Shown piece after piece: positions 21,799 to 43,187 of a stretch of DNA of 54,697 bases. The notes under the pieces were generated by a model. The model did not search any database. It worked only from the letters and a program-made list of their open reading frames with translations, and was not told where the DNA came from. How positions within the stretch are numbered: the stretch's first letter is position 1; each line of letters starts with the position of its first letter. The stretch is from Thermodesulfobacteriaceae bacterium (GTDB lineage Bacteria > Desulfobacterota > Thermodesulfobacteria > Thermodesulfobacteriales > Thermodesulfobacteriaceae). The DNA is taken from positions 1-54,697 of the forward strand of contig WGAR01000003.1 of the NCBI GenBank assembly GCA_015494725.1, given 5' to 3'. The translations under genes and the position numbers were made by a program.

Positions 21799-22887
21799 AT
21801 GCCCTTGAAATTTCTGTTTCTCTTTCTCCTGGTGGGTATCGTGCTCTATTTTTTCTACCGTCGCTTTGCGACCGGAGTTACCGTTTCCACCGAATCCACC
21901 GAAAATCGGTCCGAGACCCTTACCGATTACTCCTCCCTCCCGGGCCAGGAGTCCGGAACAGCCCCTGTATCCCCGCGGGAGGTCATCTCTTACGACCTCA
22001 CTCGCTACTCCTGGGGCGCGGCCCCGGCCCAGGCGGAGGCAGAAAAAATCCTCCGGGATTTCCTTAAAGACGTTCCGCCTCCCCGAACCATCTCCCCCAG
22101 GCTGGAAGAACTCCTCAGCAATCCGGAATCCAACGTCCAGGAGATCGCCCGGATGGTCTCGCTGGACCCTCTTCTTACCGCGCAGATCCTTAAGGTGGCC
22201 AACTCGGCCTATTTCCGCCCCTCCGGAGCCCCCCGGATCAATTCTGTTCACCGGGCTATTATCCTCCTGGGATACAATTATCTGCGCGTACTGCTACTGG
22301 AATACTTCTTCCGCAGGACCCTGGAAAAATGCACCTCTCTTCCTCCGCAGGAATTCTTAAAAATCTGGAAGCATTCCATCGAGGTATCCGCCATTTTGGG
22401 AAGCATCGCCCTTGCCCGCCGCTACGATGTAGGAGTCTATACCACCGCGGGTATCCTTCACGATATAGGAAAATTCTTCCTCCCTCTCTTTCCGTCCTCG
22501 CAGGAGTTTTCTTTCAGCCAGGGAGAGGAAGACCTGCCTCCCCTCAAGGAGGAGGAAATCCGTTACGGATTCGGCCATACTCTTCTCGGCAAACTGGTCG
22601 TTAAGACCTGGGATCTTCCCCCGGAGATAGAGGCCGCGGTGGGCTATCATCATCCGGTATCCAGGCTCGAGTTCCTGGATCTCCCTCCAGAGAGCCGAAA
22701 GATAGCCGCCTGGGTAACCCTGGCCGATCACCTGGCCCATCTCTACGGACGCTTCGGCGGAGACTATGTCTATGAGGTTCCCGGGTGGGTATATACCTTC
22801 CTGGGCCTCAAGTCTCCGGAAGGCCTAATCACCCGGGAACTCCTCTGGGGCCTTAAAAGGGCCTCCTCCCTGGCCGAGGCCCTTTAG
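21799..22887 (+). CDS. Membrane-anchored HDOD domain protein
   Basis: N-terminal TM; DPLLTAQILKVANSAYF, AIILLG, WKHS, GILHDIGK, W.LP..I..AV.YHH. Confidence 0.9.
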   Translation: MPLKFLFLFLLVGIVLYFFYRRFATGVTVSTESTENRSETLTDYSSLPGQESGTAPVSPREVISYDLTRYSWGAAPAQAEAEKILRDFLKDVPPPRTISPRLEELLSNPESNVQEIARMVSLDPLLTAQILKVANSAYFRPSGAPRINSVHRAIILLGYNYLRVLLLEYFFRRTLEKCTSLPPQEFLKIWKHSIEVSAILGSIALARRYDVGVYTTAGILHDIGKFFLPLFPSSQEFSFSQGEEDLPPLKEEEIRYGFGHTLLGKLVVKTWDLPPEIEAAVGYHHPVSRLEFLDLPPESRKIAAWVTLADHLAHLYGRFGGDYVYEVPGWVYTFLGLKSPEGLITRELLWGLKRASSLAEAL

Positions 22888-25800
22888 GAGAGCTTCTCCA
22901 GTCTTACCGCCGCCACCTTATACTCCGGAGTGTGTACCTTCACGTCCATTCCCGCACTGGTGATCGTATTGGTCAGGGGATCCAGGAAATGAAAATCCAT
23001 AAAGAGGGTTCCCACCGGCACCCGGGAGGTTACATGGACCCGGGCCACGATCTCTCCCCTGCGGCTGACGATCCGGACCTGATCCCGCTCCCTGAGTCTG
23101 AGACGTCGGGCATCCCGGGGATTCATCTCTACCAGCTCCTCCGGCAGAAGTTCCATCAGCCCTTCCACCCTTCGGGTCATGGAACCGCAGTTGTAGTGAA
23201 ATAGCCTGCGGCCGGTGATGAGAAGGAAAGGATAAACCTCGTCCGGTTCCTCCTCCGGAGGCCAGTACCGGGGGATGGCAAAACGGGCCTTGCCGGTGGG
23301 GGTGGCAAAATTCTGTTCGAACATGATCCCGGTTCCGGGATGATCCTCGTGAGGCACCGGCCAGCAGAGTCCCTGCTCCTCCAGACGCTCGTAGGTGATC
23401 CCGGCAAAGGTCGGCATAAGACGGCGCATCTCCTCGAAGATGTCCCTCGGCGAACGGTAGCTCATGGAATAACCCATGCGTTTGGCTATCTCCACCAGGA
23501 TTTCCCAATCCGAGGGCAGATCCGCCGGGGGATCCACCAGTTTGCGAATCCTCTGAACCCGTCTCTCACCGTTGTCCGTGGTCCCCTCTTTCTCGAACAG
23601 GCAGGCCACCGGAAAAACCACATGGGCGAACTCTCCGGTCTTGGGAAAGAAGATGTCGTGAACCACCACCAGATCCAGGTTGATCAGGGCCTGGTGTACC
23701 ATCTTGAGATTGGCGTGGGTCTGGGCCACGTCGTAGCCCACGATGTAAAGAGCCCGCAGGTTTCCGGAAAGGGCTTCCTGATACATCCGGGGTTCGGTGA
23801 GCCCCGATCTCTGGGGAAGGGGGCGTCCCCAGACTTCCTCAAACTTCTTGCGCACCAGAGGGTCTTCTATCTTCTGATAGCCCGGAAGAACATAGGGAAG
23901 GGCCCCCATGTCGCAGGCCCCCTGGACGTTGTTCTGTCCTCGCAGGGGCATGGCCCCGGTCCCCGGACGCCCCACGTGCCCGCAGAGGAGGGCCAGATTG
24001 GCCAGGGCCATTACCCCGTAACTTCCACTGCGGTGTTCAGCCACCCCCAGCCCCCAGAAGATGAGGGCCCTTTCGGCCCGGGCATAAAGTCGGGCCACCT
24101 GTTCGATATAATCCTTGCGAATTCCCGTGATCCTCTCCACCCGTTCCAGAGGCCATTCGGTGAGGATATAGCGGGCGTAAGCCTCGAAATCCTCGGTGCG
24201 TTCCCGAATAAACTCCTCCCGGTAAAGGCCGTCTCGAAGGATCACATGGGCTATACCGTTGGCCAGGGCCACGTTGGACCCCGGACGCAGCGGAAGCCAC
24301 AGGTCCGCAAGCGAGGCCAGTTCCGTCTTCCGGGGATCCACCACCACCAGCTTGAGCCCCCGGGAGAGGGCGTCTTTTATCTTGTAGGACACTATGGGAT
24401 GGGCCTCCGAGGGATTGGCTCCCCATAAGATCAGAAGATCGGTTCGATATACCTCGTCGAAGGTTCCTGTGGCCGCGCCGGATCCGAAGGTGGCCGCGAG
24501 ACCCGCGACCGAAGGAGCATGTCAGACGCGGGCTGGGTTATCCACGTTATGGGTCCCGATCACCGCCCGGGCGAATTTCTGAGCGATAAAGGTCTCCTCG
24601 TTGGTGGTTCGGGCCGAACACAGGACCCCGATGCTATCCGGACCGTAACGCTCCCGGATCTCCAGAAGTCTTTCCGCTACAAATTCAAAGGCTTCCTCCC
24701 AGGAGACCTCCCGGAAAGGCTGCCCCCGGTCCCTTCGAAGCAGGGGCTTTTTCAACCGATCCGGATGACGGTAACAGGTGTAACCGAAACGTCCCTTTAC
24801 ACACAAACGCCCGTAATTGGGGGGCACTGGCGCCCCGGTTACCTCCAGGATGGTTCCGTTCTTGACCCTGGCCAGGAGGTTGCAACCGGTACCGCAATAG
24901 GGACACACCGTGCGTATCTCCCGTACCTCATTCCGGGAAAAGGGCACCGTGGAGTCCTTGCGGGTCAGAGCCCCGGTGGGACAGGCATCCACACAGGCCC
25001 CACAGGAGACGCAGTGCTCGGTAAAATTAAAGTGTATTTCTTCCTCCGGAGTCCCCTGGGCGTAAATCTTCAATTCCAGCCCTTCGTGCTGACAGCTTCG
25101 CACACACCGGAAACATCCCACGCATTTGTTGGGATCCACCTCTATAAAGGGATGTTCGGTCTGGAGGGTATATTTGGCCCGCACCCTTCCCCGGGCCGGT
25201 ACATTTTCGCGTATCAGGATCTCCCTGAAGGTACATTTATGAAACCCCAGACACCCGCATTTAAGACACCTTTCGGCCTCCCTGCGGGCGGCCTCCTCCG
25301 AAAGGGTCCCCACCACCTCCTGGAAATCCTCCTTGCGTTCCTGGGCCGGACGTTCCGCCGGTTTTTCGCGGGGAACCTGCGGGAACTGGGCGTAAAACTC
25401 CAGATCCATGTCTTCAGGGCGTCTCCCCCGGTTGAAATCGAACTTGACCGTGGGAAGGGACTTTTCCTTTTTGATTCCCATAAGATAGGCATGGATGGCT
25501 TCGGCGGCCTTTCTTCCGGAGGCCACCGCCTGGATCACGGTCTTGGGGCCGGAAACAAAATCTCCCCCGGCGAAGATTCCGGGGATATTGGTGGCCAGGG
25601 TATTGCTTTGAACCTTGAGTTGTCCGGTGGGGGTAACCGCCAGCCGGGCTTCCAGTTCCCCGAAGGTCCTGAATTCGGTAAAGGATTCCTCACCCCAGGC
25701 CCGAACCACCCAGTCAAAGTTCCTTATCTCCCTGGTGTCCTCAAGGGGCATGATGCGCCGGGCCTTGGTCTTGGGATCGGGTTCGGAAAGCACGGTTCGA

Positions 25801-26984
25801 GCGATCTCCACCCGGAAGGCCTGGCCATTGCGCTCGATACGCAGAGGGATGGCCATGAGGAAGAGCTTTACCCCTTCGGCCTCGGCGGCGCGAATCTCCC
25901 TCTGGGGGGCCGGCATTTCCACCCGGGAACGGGGATAGATGAGAGTGACCTCGGCCCCCAGCCGCACCAGGGAACGGGCCGTATCCACCGCCGTGTAGCC
26001 TCCTCCCATGACCAGAATCTGCTGGCCCTTGCGGATGGGGATCTCCTCTCCCTTTTTCAGGCGATAGAGAAGGTCCAGACCGGAAAGACTGTTCTCTTCT
26101 CCCGGGATCTGGTGTTCCCTCTCCTTGAAGGCTCCCACCGCCAGGAACACGGCCTGATATCCCTCGGCCAGAAGATCCTTAAGGGTGAAATCCCTGCCCC
26201 AGGCCTGACCGGTGCGCAGCTCTATGCCCAGGGAAAGCAGTTGTTCGATCTCCCGGCGCAGGACCTCCCGGGGGATCTTGAACTCCGGAAGGACCCAGCG
26301 GGGCATCCCTCCGGCCTCGGATTCCTTTTCCAGGATGGTTACCTGGTGACCCTTAAGCCGGAGATAATAGGCTGCGGTGAGTCCGGCCGGCCCGGCCCCC
26401 ACGATGGCCACCCTTTTTCCGGTGGGAGGAGCCATCTCCACCCGGATGCCGCCACGCTCAAGGCCCCAGTCGGCCACAAACCGCTTGAGGTCGTTTATGG
26501 CCACCGGGGCATCCACCAGGGCCCGCCGACAGCGAGGTTCACAGAAACGGGGACATACCCTTCCCACCAGGGCCGGCAGAGGCAACCTCTCCTTGATCAG
26601 GGAAAGGGCCGCCGCATATTCCCCCCGGGCGATAAGAGCCACATACCCCTGAATGTTTAATCCTCCCGGGCAGGGTTGGCTGCACGGAGCCCGGCAGTCT
26701 CCGTAATGATTGGCTACCAGGGTTTCCAGAATCCTGCGTCGGGCCTCCTTGACCGGATCCGAATCGGTCCAGACCCGCCACCCCTCCCTTACCGGCGTGG
26801 TACAGGCCCGAACCAGCCCCTCCCCCTCGACCTCCACCGTACAGAGACCGCACGGAACCGGGGAGGTCTCGGCTCCGTGCAAATGGCACAGAGAGGGAAT
26901 CTCTATTCCCGCTCTCTCCGCGGCTTCCAGTAGCGTTTCCCCTTCCCTCGCCTCATACTCCTTTCCGTTCAGATAGATCTTCAT
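22884..26984 (-). CDS. fdhF: Selenocysteine-containing Mo/W-bisPGD formate dehydrogenase fused to a [2Fe-2S] domain and a GltD-like FAD/NAD(P)H module (1366 aa, Sec821)
   Basis: ORFs 24522-26984 and 22884-24392 are in frame; UGA 24524-24522 reads ARV-U-HAPSVAGL; CPYCGTGC, LRGQNNVQG, GAGPAG, multiple Fe-S motifs. Confidence 0.93.
24492..24510 (-). promoter_or_regulatory. SECIS-like hairpin of fdh
   Basis: GGUCGCG-GGUCU-CGCGGCC starting 11 nt after UGA, the same geometry as the E. coli fdhF SECIS. Confidence 0.85.
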
Positions 26985-27052
26985 TCCCTGCCCCCTGCCT
27001 GAGGATGTTTTGGGGAAGTCCGGGGGAGGGGCTCCCCCGGAGGCCTCGTAGA

Positions 27053-27949
27053 TTAAAGTTCCAGCCAGGATTCGGAAAAGATGGTCTTCCCTAAGAGGAC
27101 CCGGGTGGTCTTGTAGATTTCAAGCTCTTTGGGAGAAAGGGTCTTGGGATCGGGTTCGTCTCCGTCCATGATGTCGTGGACCAGTTTTACCCAGTCGGGA
27201 TGTTTGCCCTTGGCTATCTCTACCAGCTCCTGATCATAAACATCCAGAATGGCCGAATGGATCCCGTATTTCATGAGCATCATGAGATAGACCCGATTCA
27301 GATAAGGGCGCAGATGGGTGGCCACCCCGTTAGATACATTGGAAAGCCCCACCGTGCTCTTGGCGCCGGGAGCAATGTCCTGAAGCATGGAAAGAAACTC
27401 CAGCCCCGAAAGGATCTGTTCCGCGCCCAGGGTAATGGGAGTGGCGATGGGATCCACCCAGATCTTTTCGTTGGGAATACCGGCCTCGTTAAGCTTCATG
27501 ATCAGATCCACCGCCAGCGCCGCCCGTTCATTGGCATCCCTGGGCATTCCCTCCGGCCCCCAGAGGAGGGCTATCACCTCGCAACCCAGTTCCGCCGCCA
27601 CCGGGATGAGCTTCTCCATACGCTCGGGCTGAGCGGAGATGGAGTTCATGAGACACCGGGCCGGGTTTTTGGAGGCCTTAAGCCCCGCGGTCATGGCCTC
27701 GGGATTGGTGGTATCCAGAGAGATGGGTACATCCACCGTCTCCTCCACCACCTTTACGATCCAGGCCGCAAGATCCGGCCCGTCTTTTTTGGCCGGACCA
27801 ATGTTGAGATCCAGATAATCCGCTCCCCTCTCCGCCTCCTCCCGGGCCATCTGCTTAATGGGCTCGGGATTCCTCTCCTTCATGGCCGGACCGATACGTT
27901 TGGACATGATGTTGATGCTCTCGGCAATACACAGGACCTGCTGGCTCAT
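27053..27949 (-). CDS. acsE: Methyl-THF:corrinoid/Fe-S protein methyltransferase
   Basis: Pterin-binding TIM barrel: IAESIN, YLDLNIG, ISLDT, MNSIS, WVDP, GLSNVS; position in acs operon. Confidence 0.92.
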   Translation of the reverse strand: MSQQVLCIAESINIMSKRIGPAMKERNPEPIKQMAREEAERGADYLDLNIGPAKKDGPDLAAWIVKVVEETVDVPISLDTTNPEAMTAGLKASKNPARCLMNSISAQPERMEKLIPVAAELGCEVIALLWGPEGMPRDANERAALAVDLIMKLNEAGIPNEKIWVDPIATPITLGAEQILSGLEFLSMLQDIAPGAKSTVGLSNVSNGVATHLRPYLNRVYLMMLMKYGIHSAILDVYDQELVEIAKGKHPDWVKLVHDIMDGDEPDPKTLSPKELEIYKTTRVLLGKTIFSESWLEL

Positions 27950-28383
27950 GCCTCCCTCCTTAAAAAGTTTTTATTTAACCTTTGTAGGATCCTTTCCATG
28001 AGCTCGGCATAACCCTTAAGGCGAGGATACAGGCGTTGAGCCGTCTCCTCCCGATAGGTGTGCGAGGTAAGGTTTCGGCTCCGGAGCATCTCCAGACAGG
28101 CCTCGGTTTCCTCCGGAGAAAGGACCCCGGTCTTAAGGGCCTCCCGAAAGCAGTTTGCCGGTGAAAAACACTCCACTATTTCCCTCTCCCGTAAATAGTC
28201 CTTAAGGGTCTTCCAGAAGATTTCAAAAGTATATTCAAAACGTTGAATGGAGGCATCCCGTACGATAACATATTCCTCACTTAAGGGATCCACCCTGCGC
28301 TCCAGAATCTCTCGCAGACTTTCATAGGCCCGCCAGGCCAGATCCCACCTTTCGCGAAATCGGCTCCTTTCCTTCAGAGCCAC
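27946..28383 (-). CDS. HEPN ribonuclease toxin (HI0074-like nucleotidyltransferase substrate-binding family)
   Basis: DASIQRFEYTFE..WK and RNLTSHTY (RX4HXY). Confidence 0.88.
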   Translation of the reverse strand: MALKERSRFRERWDLAWRAYESLREILERRVDPLSEEYVIVRDASIQRFEYTFEIFWKTLKDYLREREIVECFSPANCFREALKTGVLSPEETEACLEMLRSRNLTSHTYREETAQRLYPRLKGYAELMERILQRLNKNFLRREA

Positions 28384-28661
28384 CTTTCCCCTTCTTTTTG
28401 AATCTTTTCCCGGAGCCCCTCCGGGAGTTCTTCCCAGCCTACTACGTCCACCTCGAAGGGGAAAGTGCTCTCCTCAAGAAATTCCGCCAGCCTTCTGATG
28501 CTTTTTTCCTCTCCTTTCACCGCCAGATCGAAATCCGAAGCCACTCCCGCTCCGCCCCACAGACGGGACCCAAAAAGATAGACCTCTTTTATTCCCTCCT
28601 CCTTTTTTACAAAATCCCCTATCAGACCGCGCAGTTTTTCCTTCCAGGGGTCCTCCTTCAA
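28374..28661 (-). CDS. Minimal nucleotidyltransferase (MNT) antitoxin
   Basis: LFGS-RLWGGAGVAS-DFD (GSX10DXD), VDVV; start uncertain (TTG 28661 overlapping acsC stop, or GTG 28673). Confidence 0.85.
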   Translation of the reverse strand: MKEDPWKEKLRGLIGDFVKKEEGIKEVYLFGSRLWGGAGVASDFDLAVKGEEKSIRRLAEFLEESTFPFEVDVVGWEELPEGLREKIQKEGERWL

Positions 28662-30010
28662 GCCGCCTTCCACTCCTTGAGAAAGCTCGGAAGACCGCTG
28701 GCCTCCCGGGGCCCGATGATGATCTCCCAATCCGGGAGTTCGTCTTCAAGCTCTCCCTTAATTCCCGCCAGATAACCCGGAATGACCAGCTTCCGATGCT
28801 TGACCTTCTCCGCAATTCCGCACTTTTTCACGAATTCGGCGATGGTATCCGCCCCGAATTTACCCGCAGCCCAGGCCGTAAGCACCGAAAGCCCCTCGGT
28901 GTCCTTGATGAGAAGCCAGGAGGGGACCCGACTCCCCTCTACCTCACCCGAAACGATGAAATAGGTGAGGGCGAAGTTACAGGTAATAAGCACCGGAGAA
29001 TTTTCGTCCGGACCATTGATGGGATAGATCCCCTCCTCCACCACCAGCGGTTTTTGCGGATCGGTAAAGATGTTCATCCGCTCCACCAGCAGCGGGAAGA
29101 GCACATCGGCCCGGAAATCGGACATGATGATCATGCCCGCATACTTGGGAATGAGCACCGCGGCCAGGATGGCCTCGGCCAGATATCCCCGGGCGCACCG
29201 ATAGGGAAAGGTAATGGTGGGGAACCCGAAGGGCTTGAAACGCTTTTTGATAGCCGCCCGGCGCACGATCACCTGGTCCTCGTAGAGTTCCCGCACGCTC
29301 CGGGCCCCGGTATCCAGCACCAGGTCCTTAAGCCCCATTTTGAGTAGTTCCTCGGAGATACGGGCCGTTTCCGCCAGATTGTCGCCGCGGACCGCCAGGG
29401 CGGCCTTTTTCTCCTTGGCCACCTGGCCCATTTCCTTAAAGTTGTCCAGGGTAGCGGCATAAAGAAGAGGCCGATGTTCACCACAGAGATCACAGGCCTC
29501 GGAAAGGGTTCCCGGATTCTCGCTTATGAGAACCAGCACCGCTTCCGGACACTCCTCCCGCACCCGGCGCACCAGGGAAAGAAATCCCTCTTTATCCCCG
29601 TTTACCTCCTCCAGGGCCAGGACCTCGGCGTGAAGCTCCACCCCTACCCTTTCCCACCGGAGCTTTCGAAAACTCTCCAGCCTGCGAGCTATCTCCGCCT
29701 CCTCCATATCCGTGGCCAGCCGAAGCCCTAGGGGAACCGGATTCTCAAACCTCTTTTCGTGCCGGAAAAGCACCGTCTCCCCGCCCAGCTTCAGCTGGTG
29801 CTCTCCGCTACCCAGCACCACGGTACGAATGGGCGGGGCCGAGGCCTCGGCGATCTCCTCCTTTACCGCCGGATCTACATGCGGACACTTGTCGATTTCC
29901 GCCTGCCCTGCGGCCACCTTCATGGCAAAGGCCAGGCAGGTGGGAAATCCACAATCCCCACAGTTGGTCTTGGGCAGTTTTTGCATTATCTGAATACCGG
30001 TAAGTCCCAT
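28658..30010 (-). CDS. acsC: Corrinoid iron-sulfur protein large subunit
   Basis: LPKTNCGDCGFPTCLAFA, GGETVLFRHEK, IFTDPQKP, NFALTYF, GLSVLTAWAAGKF. Confidence 0.97.
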   Translation of the reverse strand: MGLTGIQIMQKLPKTNCGDCGFPTCLAFAMKVAAGQAEIDKCPHVDPAVKEEIAEASAPPIRTVVLGSGEHQLKLGGETVLFRHEKRFENPVPLGLRLATDMEEAEIARRLESFRKLRWERVGVELHAEVLALEEVNGDKEGFLSLVRRVREECPEAVLVLISENPGTLSEACDLCGEHRPLLYAATLDNFKEMGQVAKEKKAALAVRGDNLAETARISEELLKMGLKDLVLDTGARSVRELYEDQVIVRRAAIKKRFKPFGFPTITFPYRCARGYLAEAILAAVLIPKYAGMIIMSDFRADVLFPLLVERMNIFTDPQKPLVVEEGIYPINGPDENSPVLITCNFALTYFIVSGEVEGSRVPSWLLIKDTEGLSVLTAWAAGKFGADTIAEFVKKCGIAEKVKHRKLVIPGYLAGIKGELEDELPDWEIIIGPREASGLPSFLKEWKAA

Positions 30011-30023
30011 CGTCCTCCTCCCT

Positions 30024-32246
30024 TTACATCAGGGGTTCCATTTCCACCACGGGATGTTTTACCTTTTCCACCCACTCTTTGACTTCCTGTTCGGTGTTGG
30101 CCACGGTCTCGTCGGCGATCTTGTCCAGCAGGTCCGGGACTCCGAGTTCCTCGGCCCGTTTCTGGAGTTTCTCCCGGAGTTCCTCCTTAAGCATCTTGGG
30201 CATCCAGACCACCCGCTTGAGCCCTCCCTCCGCCAGCAGGAATTTCCGGGAGGTGATGTAATGCTTGGAGACCCCCATGAACCCGGGAGTCACCTGCCCT
30301 CCCCCCACCATTCCGGCCATGGTGGAAAACTTCATTCCCGTGGGAGTCATTCCCAGATAATCCCGGTTCACAATCATGATCCCGTTTACCGAGGGAAGCA
30401 CCGCGGCGATACATTCAAAACATCCGCAGGCGGTCATGGGATCCACCAGGATACTGTAGAGACTCACCCGCTCCACCTTTCCGCGACTGGCCTTCTTTAC
30501 GAACTCGTTGACCCCGCTGAATTGACCCAGCCGCTCGTCCAGAAGCTCTCCCTTTTCGATGGGCTGATTCGGACCGGTGGGATTGAGCTCGTAACAGGCC
30601 TTTCCGTCCAGCCAGTTATAGGCCCCGCACATCCCGATCCGTTCCGGGGTAATCACACACACATGGCTGGGGGCGAAACTCTGACACAGGGTACAGGAAT
30701 AGTAAATATCCACACTTTCGTCGGTCATTCCCGCGATACGGGCATCCCGCTTGGCATAGACCTCTTTGGCCATTTCCAGGACCTTCTTGACCTTGTCCTC
30801 CTCGGTGTAGATGGTCACCTGACACTTATCCACGATGGCCCCGAATTCCTGGCGCATCTTGGCATAGAGAATGTCTCCGATATGCCGGAAGAGGAACCCC
30901 TTTTCCGCCGCGGCCTTGCTTATCCGCAACCACATAATATTTCGCTGCCCCACATGCATGACACCCTGGGCATAGTTAATAAGGTGATGGAACTGCCGTT
31001 CCAGGATGGCCTCAAAGTCCTCCTGCATGTTGGCCCCGGCCACCTCCACCACCACCGCAAAGGGAAGCCGATAGGGCGGCCCCTGAAGCCCGAGCTTTTC
31101 CACCTCGTTTATCTCCGGCCCGATGACCTCGATCTTTCCGTCCTCCACCTCTTCCAGCGGCCTGGAGAGAAGAAGCTCCACCGCCGGGGTGCGTCCACCA
31201 CCGCATTCCAGATAAAGATCGTCCTTGCGCACCCGTTCTCCCTCAAAGGCCGGGGCATAGGCCACGGGAATGTCCAGCTTCACCGTGGTGACCTTAAGAC
31301 CCCGGACCTCAATGGCCCGATCCACGATCTCCTCGTGGGGGACCTTGGACACCACATGCTCGTAAAGGCAGATACCGTAGGGCTTGATCTCCGGCTCATC
31401 CCAGTCGGAAATCACCGGAAAGCCCCAGTTTATGGCCCCGGCTCCGTTGGCGTACCATTCCTCGGAAATAGGGCCGAAGGTGATGACAAAGGCAAAGGTT
31501 CGATCCTTGTTGTAAAGGAGATTTCCCATATAGTCCCCGGGCTTGATGCCTCCGAAGGCCATGGCCACCCGGCAGGCAAATCCGATGGAGAAGACCACCG
31601 AGGTGTAATCCGGGCCGAAGGGAATGAGTCGGGTGGGCCAGCCCAGCTGTACCCCCGCCTCCTTGAGTTGTTCGGCCATCCGCACCCCGTTGGTATCCGC
31701 ATGCATGAACACATAGAGGTTCTTTTCCTGGAGTTCCTGAGCGATCCGGGCGGCGGTTTCCTTGTCCGGTGGGGCCCCCAGGATGGCCGCAAACCCCGGA
31801 GCCGTGCCATCCACAAACTCCACCCCGCGCTTCCGGAAAATCACGTCGTCGGCCGCCCCGAGCCAGATGTTTCCGTTTACGGGCTCCTCGGTCTTAGTGT
31901 AAAAATCCGGGTCCTCCAGATACCGGATGGCCTCAATGATTTCCTCGGCAAAGAAGGTGGCCATACCCGCATCCAGAGCCGGCCCGAGATAAGGGGTCCA
32001 GAGTCTTTCGTCCGGAACCGGAGGAAGAAGTTTCCTTGCCTCCTCCAGCACTTCCCCGCAGTCCCCGAGTTTTTTCACCGGATACCCGAGCATGGCGTAG
32101 ATAATGGGTAAATAGTAGGCGGTGTTGGGGAAGGCGACCTCTTTTTCCTTCCCGAATTTCTTCACCGCCTCTTCATATTTTTCCTGGGCCCGCTCCACGA
32201 TCTTATGGGCCCCGCGAATGGCTTTGGTGGCAATAATCTTAGACAT
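30024..32246 (-). CDS. acsB: Acetyl-CoA synthase
   Basis: FPNTAYYLP, CTLCQSFAPSHVC, PMTACGCFEC A-cluster ligands. Confidence 0.97.
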   Translation of the reverse strand: MSKIIATKAIRGAHKIVERAQEKYEEAVKKFGKEKEVAFPNTAYYLPIIYAMLGYPVKKLGDCGEVLEEARKLLPPVPDERLWTPYLGPALDAGMATFFAEEIIEAIRYLEDPDFYTKTEEPVNGNIWLGAADDVIFRKRGVEFVDGTAPGFAAILGAPPDKETAARIAQELQEKNLYVFMHADTNGVRMAEQLKEAGVQLGWPTRLIPFGPDYTSVVFSIGFACRVAMAFGGIKPGDYMGNLLYNKDRTFAFVITFGPISEEWYANGAGAINWGFPVISDWDEPEIKPYGICLYEHVVSKVPHEEIVDRAIEVRGLKVTTVKLDIPVAYAPAFEGERVRKDDLYLECGGGRTPAVELLLSRPLEEVEDGKIEVIGPEINEVEKLGLQGPPYRLPFAVVVEVAGANMQEDFEAILERQFHHLINYAQGVMHVGQRNIMWLRISKAAAEKGFLFRHIGDILYAKMRQEFGAIVDKCQVTIYTEEDKVKKVLEMAKEVYAKRDARIAGMTDESVDIYYSCTLCQSFAPSHVCVITPERIGMCGAYNWLDGKACYELNPTGPNQPIEKGELLDERLGQFSGVNEFVKKASRGKVERVSLYSILVDPMTACGCFECIAAVLPSVNGIMIVNRDYLGMTPTGMKFSTMAGMVGGGQVTPGFMGVSKHYITSRKFLLAEGGLKRVVWMPKMLKEELREKLQKRAEELGVPDLLDKIADETVANTEQEVKEWVEKVKHPVVEMEPLM

Positions 32247-32264
32247 AACTTATCCCTCCTTGCC

Positions 32265-34733
32265 TCAATTTTGTTGCATGAGTTCCTTAATAATTAATTT
32301 AGTTAATTCTATGGCCTTGGGGTGCCTCATGATAAAAAGGTCCCCTCCGGCCAGCGCCAGAGCCACCGAGGTAATGGCCTCCATAAGCACCCCTCTCACC
32401 TCCTGGTCCCCCATGGTCTCGTCGCTGGGAAGCCCCGCTTCCTTGGCCTTCCATACCTCCCGTCCCACGTTACAGATAAAGGGAACCTGAAGTTTATCGT
32501 CCTGAGCGTAAAGGGCCGCCAGACGGATTCGTTCCATAACCGAATAGGTATATTCCAGCCCGTAACCCAGAGCCCCGATGGAGGGGTCCATGAGGATCTT
32601 ATCCAGGGCCACCCCTACGTTCTCTAGAAGGATGTTCAACTGTTTGGCCAGGTTCACATCGATGGGGCTGGAAGCCACCACCGGAAGCCCGTAGCCCATG
32701 GCCGTTGCCCCCAGGGTGCGATGATTGGCCTCCTCCACCGGACCGATCACCGCTCCCCGATCACCTACCACCTCAGCCACCTCGCGCAACACTTCCACAT
32801 CCTTTTCGGCATGTCCCGATCCCCATACGATAAGAGGCACATCCACCGCTCCGGCTACTTTCTCCACCACCTCCCGGGCATGCTGGGCATCCAGATTGAG
32901 ATAGTTGGGGTCGGTACCCATGAGGTAGATGCACAGGGCCTCAGCCCCGTAAGTCTCCACACACTTTCTGGCCCAGGCCGCGGGATCATCCAGCACATCC
33001 GCAAAATATCGAGCTAGACTCTCGGGCCAGTTTTCGGGTTTCACATCCAGGATCTCCATGGCCACCCGCGGTTCGTGTCGCATCTCCCCCTCGAAAAGAT
33101 GGAAGGGAAGCACATTGGTGCCTCCCACCTTGAAGGCCTTTTCCCCTTTCCCGATTTCTACCTCCCGAATGAAAGCCGTCCCCGGTTCCTTATAAAGATC
33201 CTCGGGAAGACCGGCGGCTCGCTCGGAAAGCGGCCGATATTCTCCGGAAAAACTCCCTATCTCCACTCCCTCCGCCGGAGGAGCCGGTTTTTCCTCTACC
33301 GGCGGCTTCTCAGCGGGTTTTTCCTCCCTAACCTCGACCGCGGGCTTCTCCTCGGGTTTCTCCTCTACTGGAGGTTTCTCCTCTACCGCGGGTTTTTCTT
33401 CGACTCGAGCCTCCACCTCCTCCGCGGGCTTTTCCTCTTCCACCTTCTTTTCTTCCACTACCTCTTTCTCTTTTTCTTCCGGTACTTCCTTTACCTCCAC
33501 GGGCTTTTCTTCCACCGGAGGCCGCTCTTCCACCTTCACTTCCACCCGCGGAACCTCCGGCACCTCCGCCGGCACCACCTCTCCGCCCAGGAGGGCCCGC
33601 TCCAGGCGAGCCAGACTATCGTGGAGCAGGTTCACCCCCTCGCGCAGAGACTCTATGCTGGAACGCACGGTGGAAAAGACCTCCTTTACCGCCTCCACCG
33701 GAATCTCCACCTTCGGCGGGGCCTCTTCCGGCACCTCCTCTGCCGGAGGAGCCACCACCTCCACCCGCTCCACGGGCTTTTCCACCTCCACCACAACGGC
33801 CGGACGGACCTCGGCTTCCAGCGGACGCGGATGGAGACCGGCCCGTTTCACGATCTCCGGTACCGCCTCCTCCCACTCGATGGCCATAATATGCACCCCG
33901 GCCACCCCGGGTATCTCCCGCACCTGCTGGATGATTTCCACCGCCAGATTGATGCCCTCCTCCCGCTTGTCCTTGGCCTCCTTCATGCGCTTGAGAATTT
34001 CATCCGGTACATCCAGTCCCGGCACGAAATATTTCATATAGCGGGCCATCCCGAAGGACTTGGGGGGAGTGATTCCCGCCAGGATATAGGCCTTCTCCGT
34101 AAGTCCCATATCGCGGGCCATTTCCATGAATTTCCGGAAACGTTCCACGTTATAGACGATCTGGGTCTGGATGAATTCCGCTCCGGCGGCGATCTTCTTG
34201 GCCAGGCGCTTGACCCGAAACTCAAAGGGATCGGCAAAGGGATTGGCCGCTGCCCCCAGGAAGAACTCCGGACGGGCCCCGGTGAGATCCTCCCCGCACA
34301 TGAACTTCCCTTCGTCCCGCATCCTCCGAACCATGTCCAGCAATTGAATGGAATCGAGATCAAAGACCCCCTTGGCCTCGGGATGATTTCCGAATTTCTG
34401 ATGGTCCCCGGTAATACAGAGGAGATTTTTCACTCCCAGGGCCGCCGCCCCCAGAAGATCGGCCTGGATCCCGATCCGGTTCCGGTCGCGACAGGTCATC
34501 TGGATGACCGGCTCCACCCCCTCGGCCATCACCAGCACCGCCGAGGCGATGGAGGACATCCTTACAATGGCCGTTTGACAATCGGTGATGTTGGCCGCAT
34601 CCACATAGCCCTTAATCAACCGGGCCTTCTTCCGTACCACCTCTCCGTCGGCGCTCTTGGGCGGACCGATTTCCGCGGTAACCGCGAAATGTCCCTCGGA
34701 AAGGACCCGATGTAAATGGCTTCTCGGTTCCAC
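32265..34733 (-). CDS. metF-acsD: Fusion of methylene-THF reductase MetF (N-terminal) and corrinoid Fe-S protein small subunit AcsD (C-terminal) via a PEVK-rich linker
   Basis: N-term EIGPPK, ANITD, TCRDRNR, TGDH, IQTQ, GVHIM; C-term VGG..VLPFHLFEG, SPIDVNLAKQLN, GYGLEY.YSVMERIR, MRHP; single 822-aa ORF. Confidence 0.93.
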   Translation of the reverse strand: MEPRSHLHRVLSEGHFAVTAEIGPPKSADGEVVRKKARLIKGYVDAANITDCQTAIVRMSSIASAVLVMAEGVEPVIQMTCRDRNRIGIQADLLGAAALGVKNLLCITGDHQKFGNHPEAKGVFDLDSIQLLDMVRRMRDEGKFMCGEDLTGARPEFFLGAAANPFADPFEFRVKRLAKKIAAGAEFIQTQIVYNVERFRKFMEMARDMGLTEKAYILAGITPPKSFGMARYMKYFVPGLDVPDEILKRMKEAKDKREEGINLAVEIIQQVREIPGVAGVHIMAIEWEEAVPEIVKRAGLHPRPLEAEVRPAVVVEVEKPVERVEVVAPPAEEVPEEAPPKVEIPVEAVKEVFSTVRSSIESLREGVNLLHDSLARLERALLGGEVVPAEVPEVPRVEVKVEERPPVEEKPVEVKEVPEEKEKEVVEEKKVEEEKPAEEVEARVEEKPAVEEKPPVEEKPEEKPAVEVREEKPAEKPPVEEKPAPPAEGVEIGSFSGEYRPLSERAAGLPEDLYKEPGTAFIREVEIGKGEKAFKVGGTNVLPFHLFEGEMRHEPRVAMEILDVKPENWPESLARYFADVLDDPAAWARKCVETYGAEALCIYLMGTDPNYLNLDAQHAREVVEKVAGAVDVPLIVWGSGHAEKDVEVLREVAEVVGDRGAVIGPVEEANHRTLGATAMGYGLPVVASSPIDVNLAKQLNILLENVGVALDKILMDPSIGALGYGLEYTYSVMERIRLAALYAQDDKLQVPFICNVGREVWKAKEAGLPSDETMGDQEVRGVLMEAITSVALALAGGDLFIMRHPKAIELTKLIIKELMQQN
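33275..33570 (-). repeat. Low-complexity (V)EEKP peptide repeats in the MetF-AcsD linker
   Basis: VEEKPAVEEKPPVEEKPEEKPAVEVREEKPAEKPPVEEKPAPP; boundaries approximate. Confidence 0.85.
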
Positions 34734-34746
34734 CGTTTCCCTCCTT

Positions 34747-35421
34747 TTATTTATCCATCTTGAGATCTTCCCTTATCCTGTCCCGGGGGCCACCGTGTCC
34801 GGCCGGACGCCAGTCCTTGGCCGGAAAGAAATTCATGAGACGATCCAGCTCTCCCCGGGCCGAAAGCCTCTCGTAAATCTGATGCCAGACACAGGGAACC
34901 TCCGGTCGGATCTCACAGCGCCCTCCCTGGGACCCCCCGCAGGGACCGTTGAGCAGATTCTTGGCGCACCGGGCAATGGGACACAACCCCCCGGTGAGAT
35001 CCAGGATACAATCCCCACATCCCCGGCACTTCTCCTGCCATTCTCCTAGGGCCGTGTTGGCCCCGTAAAAGGTGGTATCCACCCCGGGATAGACCCGGAT
35101 CTCGGGGAAGAGATCGGCAATGAGGTTCACCCCCACCCCGCAGGCCATAGAAACCACCGCCTCATATTTATCCGCCCATTCTCGCAGCGGCGCCAGATAC
35201 TCCGGATCACACTGCCGGATGAGGGTGGCCTCTCCGGTCTCAAGCGGCCGACCGGCCCTCTTCCGGGCCAGCCTCAGGGCCGCCGCCATGGTCTCCACCT
35301 CCCGATCCCCTCCCGCCGAACAGATGGCCACACACCCCCGACACCCCAGAACCAGAACCCGCTGATAAGGCTCTATGGCCTCCAGTACTCGGCGTATGGG
35401 TTTGCGTTCTGCAACGATCAT
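34747..35421 (-). CDS. metV: Methylene-THF reductase small Fe-S subunit MetV
   Basis: MIVAERKP, GC.GC..IC, RQC, ACGVG, CRGCGDC, CPIARC.K.LLNGPCGG, CVW. Confidence 0.93.
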   Translation of the reverse strand: MIVAERKPIRRVLEAIEPYQRVLVLGCRGCVAICSAGGDREVETMAAALRLARKRAGRPLETGEATLIRQCDPEYLAPLREWADKYEAVVSMACGVGVNLIADLFPEIRVYPGVDTTFYGANTALGEWQEKCRGCGDCILDLTGGLCPIARCAKNLLNGPCGGSQGGRCEIRPEVPCVWHQIYERLSARGELDRLMNFFPAKDWRPAGHGGPRDRIREDLKMDK

Positions 35422-35433
35422 TTTCCGTTCTCC

Positions 35434-35814
35434 TCAGGACTTAGACTTCATAGTTAAAGCTATTTCAAAAGTTTTCTTTACCTCCTCCATGAAAGGCCCG
35501 GTATCCAGTCGAGGCAGAAAGGCAAAACGCACCCGTTCCGGTTCCAGCCCGATCTCCTCAAGGATCTTCCGGGCCCCCTGGACCTTCTTTTCCGCCCGCT
35601 GACTCCCGGACAGATTGTGACAGCTTTCCGCCTCGCATCCGGCCACCAGCACCGCCTCCGCCCCTTCCTCGAAGGTGCGCAGGATATCCGCCACCTCGAT
35701 ATGTCCGGAACAGGGATAACGACGCACGATAACCGTGCCCGGAATCCCCTGGAAATCCTCCTCTCCGGCCTGATTGGTGTAATGGCAACAGAGCACCCCG
35801 ATGGTTACAGCCAT
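35434..35814 (-). CDS. mvhD: Second MvhD-like [2Fe-2S] protein (all-Cys, divergent)
   Basis: LCC, PCSG, AGCEAESCH..G, LEEIGLEPERV. Confidence 0.85.
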   Translation of the reverse strand: MAVTIGVLCCHYTNQAGEEDFQGIPGTVIVRRYPCSGHIEVADILRTFEEGAEAVLVAGCEAESCHNLSGSQRAEKKVQGARKILEEIGLEPERVRFAFLPRLDTGPFMEEVKKTFEIALTMKSKS

Positions 35815-36362
35815 TAACTCACACCCCCGTATCTCAGGATTTCAAATTCCGCCGCGGGCTTGAGCTCGATGGCCCGGGCCGGGCATTCCCGCACGCATAT
35901 CCCGCAGGCATGACACTTGGCCGGATCGATCACCGCGTACCCTTCCTCACGGATACTCGGAGCCCCGAAGGGACACACCCGCACACAGGTCAGACATACG
36001 ATACACTTTCCGGGATTTACCCGGGCCAGCCTTCCGGCCTCAAACAGGGTCTCCTCGTTGGCCAGACCGGATCGCAGGGCATATTCCCGCAGCGCCCGAA
36101 TTACCTCCGCCGGCTTTACCTCCATGGGGCATACCGGGACGCAGCTCTGGCACTGGGAACAGTGCCAGAGGATGGGGGTCCCGAAGAGTTTTTCCCGCAG
36201 GCCCAGCACCGTGGCATGCACGATGACCCGGGGATCAAAGTCCCGGCGTACCTTCTTTACCGGACAGATCCCCGAACAGGCTCCGCAGCGAAAACACTGA
36301 CTGTAAGTCTCCGGCAACCCCTCCACTTCGGGTATCCATTCCCTGGCTAATTCCAGTTTCAT
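35814..36362 (-). CDS. HdrC-like domain fused to a 2x[4Fe-4S] ferredoxin domain
   Basis: CFRCGACSGICP, LWHCSQCQSCVPVCP, CIVCLTCVRVCP, CHACGICVRECP. Confidence 0.85.
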   Translation of the reverse strand: MKLELAREWIPEVEGLPETYSQCFRCGACSGICPVKKVRRDFDPRVIVHATVLGLREKLFGTPILWHCSQCQSCVPVCPMEVKPAEVIRALREYALRSGLANEETLFEAGRLARVNPGKCIVCLTCVRVCPFGAPSIREEGYAVIDPAKCHACGICVRECPARAIELKPAAEFEILRYGGVS

Positions 36363-37078
36363 GACTTTTTCCCCTTTTCCATGGCTTCAAGAATCCCCGC
36401 CAATTCCTGAGGACTGGCTCCGGTGGCCTCGGCCAGCGCATCCACACTCTGAGGCCCTTGGGAGAGCAATTCCCGGACCTCGCTTTCCAGGATCCGTTTA
36501 CGTATCTGAGGCACCAGCTTCTTCTCCACCAACTGGGCTATGTTCTCCGGACTGTAATCGCCCAGCTTCTTTATTTCCCGGGCCAAATTACCATATTGCG
36601 CCCGGAATTGCATGTTCGAGCAGAGCTTCCGCGCCGCCTCCAGCCGGAACTGTAGCCGTTCCCGGGAAAGCCCCTCGGCCTCCCCCAGGGGGCCCAGCTT
36701 CCGGATCCGCTCCGTAAAATCGGTGAGCAGCTGCACAAAGCGCGGCCCCTCCGCGGCCGAGGCCCAGTCGATATAAAAACGATCCCTTTTCACCCCCACG
36801 GTGTCCAGGATCCGCCTTACCGTTTCAGCCATGACCAGAGCTTCGAAATTACCAGACTGGTAATGGCACTCCCCGAGGTGTCACCCACCCACGAAGACCC
36901 CGTCGGAACCTACATAGAAGGCCTCCACCACGAAACGAGGATCCATCCTTCCGGTACACATGATCCGGATGACCCGGTTATTGGGAGGGTAACTGAACCG
37001 GGCCACCCCGGCCGAATCCGCCGCCGCATAGCAGCACCAGTTACACAGAAAACTTAATATTCTGGGTTCAAACCCCAT
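36359..37078 (-). CDS. mvhD: Selenocysteine-containing MvhD with C-terminal extension (239 aa, Sec66)
   Basis: ORFs 36881-37078 and 36359-36832 are in frame; UGA 36883-36881 reads GG-U-HLGECHYQSGN (MvhD motif GCH.GDCHY); FLCNWC, MCTGR, WASAAEG. Confidence 0.92.
36848..36864 (-). promoter_or_regulatory. SECIS-like hairpin of mvhD
   Basis: AUUACCA-GUC-UGGUAAU starting 16 nt after UGA. Confidence 0.75.
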
Positions 37079-37090
37079 CGTAACCCCTCC

Positions 37091-40000: not shown

Positions 40001-40153
40001 GAAGGTCTTATCCAGCTTGGCCATTACGCCCCCGATGGAGGCCTTCTTCTCCACCAGATAGACGTAATAGCCCAGATCCGCGAGATCCAGGGCCGCCTGG
40101 ATCCCGGCGATCCCTCCGCCCACCACGAGGACCTTTCCGGATTTTTTAGCCAT
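37091..40153 (-). CDS. hdrA: Large selenocysteine-containing HdrA with two FAD modules (1020 aa, Sec59)
   Basis: True start ATG 40153 (AAGGAGG SD) [17 protein letters not shown]...[20 protein letters not shown] 39979-39977, in frame with ORF 37091-39961; second GGGAAG module; [26 protein letters not shown]. Confidence 0.94.
39939..39956 (-). promoter_or_regulatory. SECIS-like hairpin of hdrA
   Basis: GGAGGCC-GGUC-GGUCUCC starting 20 nt after UGA. Confidence 0.78.
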
Positions 40154-40174
40154 AAAAGTCCTCCTTGTAATATT

Positions 40175-42223: not shown

Positions 42224-42284
42224 AATGTTTCAACCTCCTGCAATGTTTATTGATTCTTAGTCTAAACCACTTCTGGAAGAACGA

Positions 42285-43187
42285 CTAGCCCACCTCACAG
42301 GGGAGTCCGGCCCAGAGCTTGGCCGCCTCCACCGTGTTTTTCATGAGCATGGTAATGGTCATGGGCCCCACCCCTCCGGGAACCGGGGTAATGGCCGAGG
42401 CCTTTTCCTTCACCGCGTCGAAATCCACATCCCCGCAAAGGATGGCCTTACCCTCCGGAGTGGTGCCGATCCGGTTCACCCCCACATCGATGACCACCGC
42501 TCCCTCCTTGACCATATCCGCGGTAATGACCTTGGGACGCCCGGCAGCCACGATGAGGATATCCGCCCGGCGGGTATGGGCAGCCATATCGCGGGTTCCG
42601 GTATGACATACGGTAACCGTGGCGTTACCCACAGGCTTCCTTTTCTGAAGGAGAAGATTGGCCACGGGTTTGCCCACGATGTTGCTCCGCCCCACCACCA
42701 CCACATCGGCCCCGTCCACCTGGACCTGAGCCCGCTCAAGCATCACCAGAATTCCATGAGGGGTGCAGGGCAGGAAACAGGGCTCTCCGATGACCATCTT
42801 CCCCACGTTTACCGGGTGGAAACCATCCACATCCTTCCGGGGATCAATGGCATAAATGATCCTGCGTTCATTGATGTGCTTGGGAAGGGGAAGCTGCACC
42901 AGTATCCCGTGGATCTTTTCGTCCTTATTGTATTTGTCGATCAGGGCCAGAAGTTCGCTTTCACTGACCTCCTCGGGTAGGTTTTCCTGGACCGAATAGA
43001 ACCCCAGATCCTTGGCCGTACGCTGTTTGGCCGTAACGTAAGAGATCGAGGCCGGATTTTCTCCCACCAGGATAGTCACCAGACCGGGAGTAACCCCATG
43101 TTTTTCCTTGAGTTCCTGAACCTCTTTCCTTAGTTCTTCCCGAATTTGCTGAGAAATCTCTTTACCGCTGATAATCCTGGCCGACAT
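42285..43187 (-). CDS. folD: Bifunctional methylene-THF dehydrogenase/cyclohydrolase
   Basis: GILVQLPLP, KDVDGFHP, PCTPHG, GRSNIVGKP, TPVPGGVGPMT. Confidence 0.97.
   Translation of the reverse strand: MSARIISGKEISQQIREELRKEVQELKEKHGVTPGLVTILVGENPASISYVTAKQRTAKDLGFYSVQENLPEEVSESELLALIDKYNKDEKIHGILVQLPLPKHINERRIIYAIDPRKDVDGFHPVNVGKMVIGEPCFLPCTPHGILVMLERAQVQVDGADVVVVGRSNIVGKPVANLLLQKRKPVGNATVTVCHTGTRDMAAHTRRADILIVAAGRPKVITADMVKEGAVVIDVGVNRIGTTPEGKAILCGDVDFDAVKEKASAITPVPGGVGPMTITMLMKNTVEAAKLWAGLPCEVG

What the first reader, a model, noticed from the sequence alone, without database searches (positions are those of the whole stretch)
27946..28661. HEPN/MNT toxin-antitoxin pair inserted between acsC and acsE and translationally coupled on both sides
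Seen: MNT (GSX10DXD) and HEPN (RX4HXY) with intact motifs. MNT overlaps the acsC stop, HEPN overlaps MNT, and the HEPN stop overlaps the acsE ATG (ATGA), leaving no intergenic room for a promoter. Known: in HepT/MntA systems the MNT AMPylates the Tyr next to the RNase motif. Inference: an ATP-dependent RNase switch is co-expressed with carbon fixation. It might stabilise the operon, gate acsE/fdh translation or tie growth arrest to energy status, or it may be a passive passenger.
Basis: partly seen in the sequence, partly recalled or inferred. Interest (0 to 1): 0.75.

Follow-up and report, generated by a model that had tools for sequence, protein, structure and literature searches.

The report
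Toxin-antitoxin passenger inside carbon-fixation operon
A likely RNA-cutting toxin gene and its predicted antidote sit wedged between two carbon-fixation genes of a deep-sea vent bacterium, but most relatives lack or have broken the pair and similar pairs sit inside many unrelated housekeeping operons, so it is most likely an ordinary hitchhiker rather than a control switch for carbon fixation.

Summary
Observation confirmed: an MNT gene (28374-28661, GSX10DXD) and a HEPN gene (27946-28383, RX4HXY) lie between acsC and acsE with overlaps of 4, 10 and 4 nt. They form a class I HEPN/MNT pair of the HI0074/HI0073 branch, under purifying selection (dN/dS 0.08-0.16).

The link to carbon fixation is not supported. 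Of 54 readable acsC-acsE junctions in the order, 5 hold an open pair, 3 a broken one or remnant, 37 are direct and 9 are fused. The ATGA overlap occurs in only 3 of 7 carriers, and a close relative lacks it through a 1-nt deletion. The same genome holds at least 4 more MNT/HEPN pairs inside unrelated housekeeping operons, and relatives add 8 further junctions. Such insertions were described in 2009 (Thermus lysine operon), and this scan noted a similar HEPN cassette in another genome (e1-3109191).

Best reading: an old, likely promoterless toxin-antitoxin cassette riding on the operon's mRNA, repeatedly decayed, lost and probably swapped. Toxicity, AMPylation and co-transcription are inferred, not tested.

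The parts
28374..28661 (-). MNT (minimal nucleotidyltransferase, predicted antitoxin), 95 aa, inferred TTG start overlapping the acsC stop; short form without the C-terminal helix of Shewanella MntA
   Evidence: PF18765 E 1.2e-11, PF01909 E 1e-8; closest PDB HI0073 1no5; NF047752 below cut-off, 39.3 < 60
28527..28571 (-). GSX10DXD motif (G31-D45) of MNT
   Evidence: read from the sequence; G31, S32, D43 and D45 invariant in alignment A2
27946..28383 (-). HEPN (predicted RNase toxin), 145 aa, HI0074 / NTase_sub_bind branch
   Evidence: PF08780 E 7.1e-29; TIGR01987 78.9 > 55.8; PDB TTHA0636 E 6e-26, Legionella HEPN 8xdj E 6e-10, HI0074 E 2e-6
28234..28245 (-). Q47-x-x-E50, aligning with the Mg2+ site Q44/E47 of the Legionella HEPN (predicted catalytic site)
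   Evidence: alignment; invariant in A1; PMC11586414 section 7
28054..28077 (-). RX4HXY motif (R103-Y110); Y110 is the predicted AMP acceptor
   Evidence: read from the sequence; R103, H108 and Y110 invariant in A1
27951..27966 (-). Shine-Dalgarno of acsE inside the HEPN 3' end, preceded by a T-run whose length sets whether HEPN overlaps acsE
   Evidence: 1-nt deletion at 27962 in X5-X7 and in G005
28658..30010 (-). acsC, corrinoid iron-sulfur protein large (gamma) subunit: upstream host gene
   Evidence: NF003195 587.6 > 306
27053..27949 (-). acsE, methyl-THF:corrinoid protein methyltransferase: downstream host gene
   Evidence: PF00809; NF005719 and NF040758 best hits, below their cut-offs; name also from synteny
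22884..45101 (-). Host Wood-Ljungdahl cluster: fhs, folD, cooS, hdrA-like, hdrC-like, mvhD-like, metV, metF-acsD fusion, acsB, acsC, [MNT-HEPN], acsE, fdh
   Evidence: hdr/mvh/metV labels partly recalled from the Pfam domains

Best explanation
This is a class I HEPN/MNT (type VII-like) toxin-antitoxin cassette that likely has no promoter of its own and likely rides on the Wood-Ljungdahl operon mRNA as a long-term passenger, with no special role in carbon fixation. Shown: the genes, motifs, overlaps, purifying selection, one clade of copies at this junction, patchy presence with broken copies and a remnant, and 12 other occupied junctions. Inferred from homologs: HEPN forms a dimeric or tetrameric Mg2+-dependent RNase (Q47/E50), and MNT, placed upstream and translated first by re-initiation at the acsC stop, neutralises it by transferring AMP from ATP to Y110. 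Inferred history: the cassette entered right after the acsC stop, and its HEPN frame ran into the spacer holding the acsE ribosome-binding site. It persists because losing MNT alone would be lethal and clean deletion must spare that site. It leaves by toxin inactivation followed by deletion, and is probably swapped between vent relatives by recombination in the conserved flanks.
For: (1) Junction census over 63 genomes of the order: 54 readable, with 5 open pairs (G000, G005, G006, G008, G029), 3 broken or remnant (G001, G027, G028), 37 direct and 9 acsC-acsE fusions. In 80 metagenome acsE loci, 28 had acsC upstream: 19 direct, 8 fused, 1 remnant, 0 intact pairs. (2) The ATGA overlap occurs in 3 of 7 carriers and the TTGA overlap in 4 of 7. 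(3) Own genome: 5 of 7 MNT/HEPN loci lie between co-directional housekeeping genes: acsC|acsE, lysA|purD, acsA|cobB, ahbB|hemL (split over two contigs) and nadA|purL. Relatives add fixC|fixX, gatB|mtnA-like, purF-like|ubiD, infB|DUF503-rbfA, fbp|cysS, pmbA|trpD, cation ATPase|unknown and hsdS|hsdR. Four of these are empty or scarred in G000. (4) Junction HEPNs form one clade, 97/93. The cassette DNA tree rejects monophyly of genus g1 (p-AU 0.015), whereas RpoB supports it at 99. (5) In the 5 cassettes seen with only one partner broken, it is HEPN in all 5 (found by eye). (6) dN/dS is 0.11-0.16 for MNT and 0.08-0.16 for HEPN in unsaturated within-family pairs. GC3 is 0.57-0.58, against 0.65-0.75 for the 12 other ORFs scored in the cluster. 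(7) Precedent: an MNT-HEPN module inside the lysine operon of Thermus thermophilus HB8 but not HB27 (PMC2701414). (8) Complex prediction, weak support only: 0.56 against best control 0.01, runs agreeing in at least 76% of contacts, partner pLDDT at least 84. The mark was reached by 116 of 157 solved complexes and 2 of 215 mismatches, but at 0.60 or under by only 18 of the 157 and both mismatches; like complexes are solved, so the pass may be from memory.
Against: The cassette is old and has stayed under purifying selection at one junction across two families (HEPN 51-59% identical between families), longer than a purely neutral passenger should last, so some benefit such as defence cannot be excluded. 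My automated test of embedding on both sides did not separate this order from outsiders (2 of 16 against 7 of 58). It missed short or mis-called flanking genes, so the 13-site list is curated by eye and is not a census. The upstream-only test gave 12 of 19 against 17 of 65. Lack of an internal promoter is not shown: the scan found none in 26800-30200, but also none ahead of fhs, folD or cooS. The RpoB tree is the quick version. The lateral-swap signal could partly reflect a fast-evolving G006 copy, and the converse test on acsC+acsE was not significant (p-AU 0.068). The G027 frameshift lies in a homopolymer and could be a sequencing error.
Confidence: 0.72

Rival explanations
1. The cassette is kept for the host's benefit as an anti-phage or general stress RNase, and uses strongly expressed essential operons only as a constant source of expression. 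The site is incidental but the pair is selected, not selfish.
For: Long purifying selection. Relatives of this HEPN also sit beside Csx1/Csm6 genes and between hsdS and hsdR. Type VII systems have been proposed as ATP sensors in antiviral defence (PMC13000451, passage). The MNT weakly matches PADLOC PDC-S09 models (E 8e-9).
Against: HEPN has no PADLOC match. Repeated toxin-first decay and loss. The acs site has no defence genes around it. The explanation is compatible with the best one, and sequence data cannot separate them.
Confidence: 0.16
2. One reading: the pair has been domesticated as an ATP-sensing RNase switch for the Wood-Ljungdahl operon, gating acsE/fdh translation or tying growth arrest to carbon fixation.
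For: Overlaps on both sides in this genome. One clade of copies persists at this junction in two families. MNT uses ATP in characterised homologs (PMC7641770 abstract).
Against: Absent in 46 of 54 junctions and broken in 3, in genomes that keep acsC and acsE; 9 even fuse AcsC to AcsE. The 3' overlap occurs in 3 of 7 carriers and differs by 1 nt between close relatives. acsE has its own Shine-Dalgarno site. Twelve other junctions hold similar pairs. The closest characterised HEPN cuts rRNA non-specifically (PMC11586414).
Confidence: 0.08
3. The pair in this genome is an inactive relic that is decaying neutrally.
For: Broken copies in G001, G027 and G028; a one-codon deletion next to the motif in G029; an F-to-S change in G008.
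Against: All motifs are intact in G000. dN/dS against G005 is 0.107 (MNT, 2 nonsynonymous and 5 synonymous changes, p 0.006) and 0.160 (HEPN, 4 and 7, p 0.004).
Confidence: 0.04

Closest known systems
Legionella pneumophila HEPN-MNT module (PDB 8xdj, 8xeh, 8xeo; PMC11586414)
   Same: Same HEPN branch (E 6e-10) with the Q-x-x-E metal site, RX4HXY and acceptor Tyr aligned; short MNT with GSX10DXD and no C-terminal alpha4 helix; MNT upstream of HEPN.
   Different: Activity was shown there and not here. This copy is from a vent thermophile and is embedded in an acs operon.
Thermus thermophilus TTHA0636 / TTHA0048 and Haemophilus HI0073/HI0074 (PF08780, TIGR01987)
   Same: Closest solved sequences (E 6e-26, 1e-20, 2e-6). 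An MNT-HEPN module inserted in the lysine operon of HB8 but not HB27 is the same life style (PMC2701414).
   Different: That insertion was described as recent and strain-specific. Here one clade of cassettes holds the same junction in two families, with decay stages and probable swaps. I did not check which Thermus gene pair is the lysine-operon insert.
Shewanella oneidensis HepT/MntA (SO_3166/SO_3165; PMC7641770, PMC4621449)
   Same: Class I definition (PF08780 or PF01934 plus PF01909), both motifs, gene order and overlapping genes.
   Different: Below the NCBIfam HepT and MntA cut-offs (21.7 and 39.3, against 60). MNT is 95 aa against 139 aa, lacking the C-terminal helix. The Shewanella pair has its own autorepressed promoter, for which there is no intergenic room here.

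Membership tests
Class I HEPN/MNT module (type VII TA, as defined in PMC7641770) | PF01909 MNT gene next to a PF01934 or PF08780 HEPN gene, MNT upstream | tested here: met
   definition read in section 22
Class I HEPN/MNT module (type VII TA, as defined in PMC7641770) | GSX10DXD motif in MNT | tested here: met
   G31-S32...D43-F-D45, invariant in A2
Class I HEPN/MNT module (type VII TA, as defined in PMC7641770) | RX4HXY motif with acceptor tyrosine in HEPN | tested here: met
   R103, H108, Y110 invariant in A1
Class I HEPN/MNT module (type VII TA, as defined in PMC7641770) | HEPN is a toxic RNase | not testable with these tools
   indirect only: purifying selection; HEPN is the broken partner in 5 of 5 singly broken cassettes seen
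Class I HEPN/MNT module (type VII TA, as defined in PMC7641770) | MNT AMPylates the HEPN tyrosine and neutralises toxicity | not testable with these tools
   inferred from motifs and homologs
Class I HEPN/MNT module (type VII TA, as defined in PMC7641770) | MNT and HEPN bind each other | tested here: inconclusive
   weak support, 0.56 against best control 0.01; at 0.60 or under the mark was reached by 18 of 157 solved complexes and both of the 2 of 215 mismatches that passed; like complexes are solved
HI0074/HI0073 subfamily (TIGR01987, PF08780) | Score above the curated cut-off | tested here: met
   TIGR01987 78.9 > 55.8; PF08780 100.8 > 31.8
HI0074/HI0073 subfamily, Legionella-type mechanism | Q-x-x-E Mg2+ site in helix 2 of HEPN and a short MNT lacking alpha4 | tested here: met
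   Q47/E50 align with Q44/E47; 95-aa MNT ends where position 94 of the 139-aa MntA aligns; sequence-level test only
NCBIfam HepT/MntA equivalogs (NF047751, NF047752; Shewanella-type) | Score above the curated cut-off of 60 | tested here: not met
   21.7 and 39.3 bits; not filed under these equivalogs
Shewanella-type HepT/MntA operon | Own promoter, repressed by the antitoxin | tested here: inconclusive
   0 promoter-like sites in 26800-30200, but the scan also finds none ahead of the cluster's first genes; no RNA run listed

The most novel reading that the evidence does not exclude
In these vent thermophiles, promoterless MNT/HEPN cassettes are a distributed alarm wired into a dozen essential operons (carbon fixation, purine, lysine, haem, NAD, translation). 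Each takes its expression from a host mRNA, so that a fall in ATP or a shut-off of host transcription leaves HEPN unmodified and arrests the cell. They move between relatives by recombination at fixed junctions, like homing cargo without a mobility gene. The acsC-acsE copy would be the arm that reports on carbon fixation.
Probability: 0.12. Interest if true: 0.65.

Novelty: new member of a known kind. Interest (0 to 1): 0.25.

Why it matters
As one locus it matters little: the family, its mechanism and its habit of landing inside biosynthetic operons of thermophiles are published. I found no paper on this particular site (searches returned 0; one search listed 4 papers with single passing mentions, not read). 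The more useful by-product is the comparative series: one junction showing intact, frameshifted, deleted, remnant and empty states, plus 12 further junctions in the same order. That series could test why chromosomal toxin-antitoxin pairs persist (addiction or benefit) and how a cassette without a mobility gene spreads. It is also a warning against reading function from gene neighbourhood for this family.

Tried and rejected
Expression: no RNA holder was listed among 9 runs, which is no evidence either way.

Internal promoter: the sigma-70 scan is too insensitive in this genome to decide.

Junction duplication, a lead from e1-3109191: none found (p 0.31, 0.68 and 0.32 against shuffles).

Empty spacers as scars: of 11 spacers tested against 5 cassettes, G028 is a clear remnant and G002 matches the G000 HEPN tail (0 of 300 shuffles with the Shine-Dalgarno included; p 0.006 without it, 1 of 13 scored). 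The rest gave no convincing match.

Recombination breakpoints: third-position identity windows along acsC and acsE showed no clear step near the junction.

Automated embedding count: uninformative on the two-sided test. My first reading of thiC as a co-directional neighbour in G016 was wrong; it is convergent.

Tree caveats: the G001 HEPN fragment included about 9 out-of-frame residues and the G001 lysA-site MNT row was a truncated fragment, which explains the unresolved MNT junction clade (2 changes; one clade in 66% of bootstrap trees). The careful RpoB search did not finish; G038 was left out as too short.

PADLOC: no HEPN match. Rfam: no match in the window at gathering thresholds.

Earlier scan notes: nothing for relatives or this genome.

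No structure prediction of single chains was run, since sequence hits to PDB were clear. No paper supplements were read; the supplementary tables of PMC7641770 list about 19,000 class I modules and may include these loci.

Full report
OBSERVATION. The window carries a complete Wood-Ljungdahl cluster on the minus strand, from fhs (45101) to formate dehydrogenase (22884). Between acsC (28658-30010) and acsE (27053-27949) lie a 95-aa MNT (28374-28661, inferred TTG start in a TTGA overlap) and a 145-aa HEPN (27946-28383). The gaps are -4, -10 and -4 nt. GSX10DXD and RX4HXY are intact. A titled record whose HEPN is 96% identical is labelled Thermosulfurimonas (L131), and the DNA is held mostly by hydrothermal-vent metagenomes.

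FAMILY. HEPN passes PF08780 and TIGR01987 (HI0074); MNT passes PF18765 and PF01909; both fall below the NCBIfam HepT and MntA equivalog cut-offs. By the definition in PMC7641770 (abstract and section 22 read) this is a class I HEPN/MNT module. The closest solved proteins are Thermus TTHA0636 and TTHA0048, the Legionella HEPN and Haemophilus HI0074/HI0073. In the Legionella protein the RNase site is a Mg2+-binding Q44/E47 pair, the RX4HXY tyrosine takes AMP, and the MNT lacks the C-terminal helix (PMC11586414, sections 7, 8 and part 1 of 12 read). Q47/E50, Y110 and a short MNT match this here. A complex prediction gave weak support only: 0.56 against a best control of 0.01, with at least 76% contact agreement and partner pLDDT of at least 84. 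At this level the mark was reached by 18 of 157 solved complexes and by both of the 2 of 215 mismatches that passed, and like complexes are solved.

THE JUNCTION IN RELATIVES. I searched all 63 genomes held for the order (55 with an acsE match at 1e-20, one more from partial hits). Seven had no acsE match and two were unreadable (G047 at a contig start, G061 with another gene fused upstream), leaving 54. Five hold an open pair (G000, G005, G006, G008, G029). Three hold a broken one: G001 has an MNT frameshift and a deletion of about 210 nt in HEPN, G027 has a HEPN frameshift in an A-run, and G028 has a 198-nt remnant confirmed against shuffles. Thirty-seven are direct: 36 with spacers of 1-77 nt and one of 320 nt without MNT/HEPN similarity. 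Nine have AcsC and AcsE in one frame. Among 80 metagenome acsE loci, 28 had acsC upstream: 19 direct, 8 fused, 1 remnant, none intact; 52 had no acsC in range. The pathway therefore runs without the pair in most of the order.

COUPLING. The HEPN-acsE overlap occurs in 3 of 7 carriers (G000, G001, G006); in the others the HEPN frame ends 2-13 nt before the ATG (for G027 the would-be frame behind its frameshift). G005, whose AcsE is 100% identical, lacks one base of a T-run, so HEPN stops 10 nt before the ATG. Both alleles are real: the long one is in runs X1-X4 (one study, possibly the source) and the short one in X5-X7 (two studies). The acsE Shine-Dalgarno lies inside the HEPN tail in every carrier, and the G002 empty spacer resembles that tail. 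The simplest inference is that HEPN reads into the old spacer, so the overlap is a by-product. The 5' overlap occurs in 4 of 7; the other family uses an ATG 4 nt after the acsC stop.

SELECTION AND HISTORY. dN/dS is 0.107 and 0.159 for MNT and 0.160 and 0.084 for HEPN (G000 against G005 and G008), compared with 0.02-0.07 for acsC and 0-0.02 for acsE in the same pairs. The copy is maintained but less constrained than its hosts, and has lower GC3. The junction HEPNs form one clade (97/93) split by family; the MNT tree agrees but is not resolved. On the quick RpoB tree carriers are scattered. By eye this needs either one gain and about 8 losses, or two gains with transfer and about 4 losses, and I cannot choose between them. 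Within the family the cassette tree rejects genus monophyly (p-AU 0.015). G008's cassette is closer to G000's at synonymous sites than its flanks are (0.55 against 0.67, p 0.007), and G006's is more distant (0.78 against 0.56, p 5e-7). This suggests replacement at the same junction, although no breakpoint was visible and the converse test on the acs genes gave p-AU 0.068.

NOT A SPECIAL SITE. G000 has 7 MNT/HEPN loci (one PF01909 hit in a longer unpaired protein was excluded). Five lie between co-directional housekeeping genes: acsC|acsE, lysA|purD, acetate-CoA ligase|cobB-hslO, ahbB|hemL (split over two contigs here, contiguous in G005) and nadA|purL. One has an oppositely oriented upstream neighbour and one is at a contig end. 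Relatives add fixC|fixX, gatB|mtnA-like, purF-like|ubiD, infB|DUF503-rbfA, fbp|cysS, pmbA|trpD, cation ATPase|unknown and hsdS|hsdR (the mtnA and purF labels are recalled from domain and sequence). In G000, purF|ubiD, infB|DUF503 and fbp|cysS hold no pair, and fixC|fixX keeps a scar of the MNT start. G003 and G004 show the mirror image: a fixC|fixX cassette and no acs cassette. In the five cassettes where only one partner is broken (G027 acs; G001 and G002 fixC|fixX; G006 fbp|cysS; G002 cas locus), it is HEPN each time. That is the order expected if HEPN is toxic. These lists come from the loci returned (30 per search) and were read by eye. An automated test gave a same-strand upstream gene within 40 nt in 12 of 19 copies in the order against 17 of 65 outside, but only 2 of 16 against 7 of 58 for both sides, because it missed short or mis-called neighbours.

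WHAT IS KNOWN. Makarova et al. 2009 (PMC2701414; passages and section 20 read) describe MNT-HEPN as abundant in thermophiles and mobile, with an insertion in the lysine operon of Thermus thermophilus HB8 but not HB27. The ATP-sensor idea is already a published proposal for type VII systems (PMC13000451, passages). The Shewanella pair has its own autorepressed promoter (PMC4621449, passages). Papers on Thermosulfurimonas and on Wood-Ljungdahl evolution in Desulfobacterota do not contain the word 'toxin' in their main text (PMC9676032, PMC12827605; passages only). Searches for this specific site returned 0 or four listings with passing mentions, which I did not read; the library lacks most subscription journals. 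Searches were seen as listings only.

VERDICT. A real, intact, ordinary class I HEPN/MNT pair, likely a promoterless passenger on the acs mRNA (0.72). Rivals: selected defence or stress function with an incidental site (0.16), a carbon-fixation switch (0.08), a dead relic (0.04). New member of a known kind; interest 0.25.

Noticed in passing
L066, L074, L075, L081-L086 (9 genomes of genus g6); 8 metagenome loci such as L223, L226, L233: AcsC and AcsE are encoded in one open frame of about 780-820 aa, joined by a Glu/Lys-rich linker: a natural fusion of the corrinoid protein's large subunit with its methyltransferase. A four-term paper search found nothing.
   Followed up: partly
L027:1188-1400, L061:1106-1321, L062:1021-1225; probably L092 and L213: A second acsE copy outside the cluster lies behind a cobalamin riboswitch (RF00174) in G025, G027 and G028. 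In G025 and G027 both copies score identically, which suggests recent duplication or gene conversion.
   Followed up: partly
window 22884-26984 (-), TGA at 24522-24524: The formate dehydrogenase gene reads as one 1366-aa protein (oxidoreductase domains fused to the molybdopterin subunit) if one TGA is read as selenocysteine (U821). A hairpin follows the codon and selA is in the genome; my filtered aragorn check showed no tRNA-Sec.
   Followed up: partly
window 32265-34733 (-): metF and acsD are fused in one 822-aa frame with a long Glu/Lys/Pro/Val-rich linker.
   Followed up: no
L072 (G061): acsE is fused in frame to an upstream MvhD-like protein (label recalled), with no acsC nearby; this may be a deletion or a misassembly.
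   Followed up: no
L289:1-2977 (G000:C20); L306-L308: A DUF86-type HepT/MntA pair passing both NCBIfam cut-offs sits between acetate-CoA ligase and the sirtuin deacylase cobB, an enzyme and its likely regulator, in 4 genomes of the genus (HEPN frame not recovered in G001).
   Followed up: partly
window 47047-54697 (-): A run of large, apparently secreted proteins of unknown kind (453, 481, 1062, 288 aa and a cut one) with repeated CARDB-like segments (label recalled) lies upstream of the Wood-Ljungdahl cluster.
   Followed up: no
PDB 9z7q: The MNT profile also matches a solved 'Cmr1-MntA' fusion (E 5e-10), and several relatives of this pair neighbour Csx1/Csm6 genes, so this MNT branch has ties to type III CRISPR loci.
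   Followed up: no
L095 (G008), acsC 3' end: acsC has a TAG three codons before the usual end, removing the overlap with MNT; this may be an assembly error.
   Followed up: no
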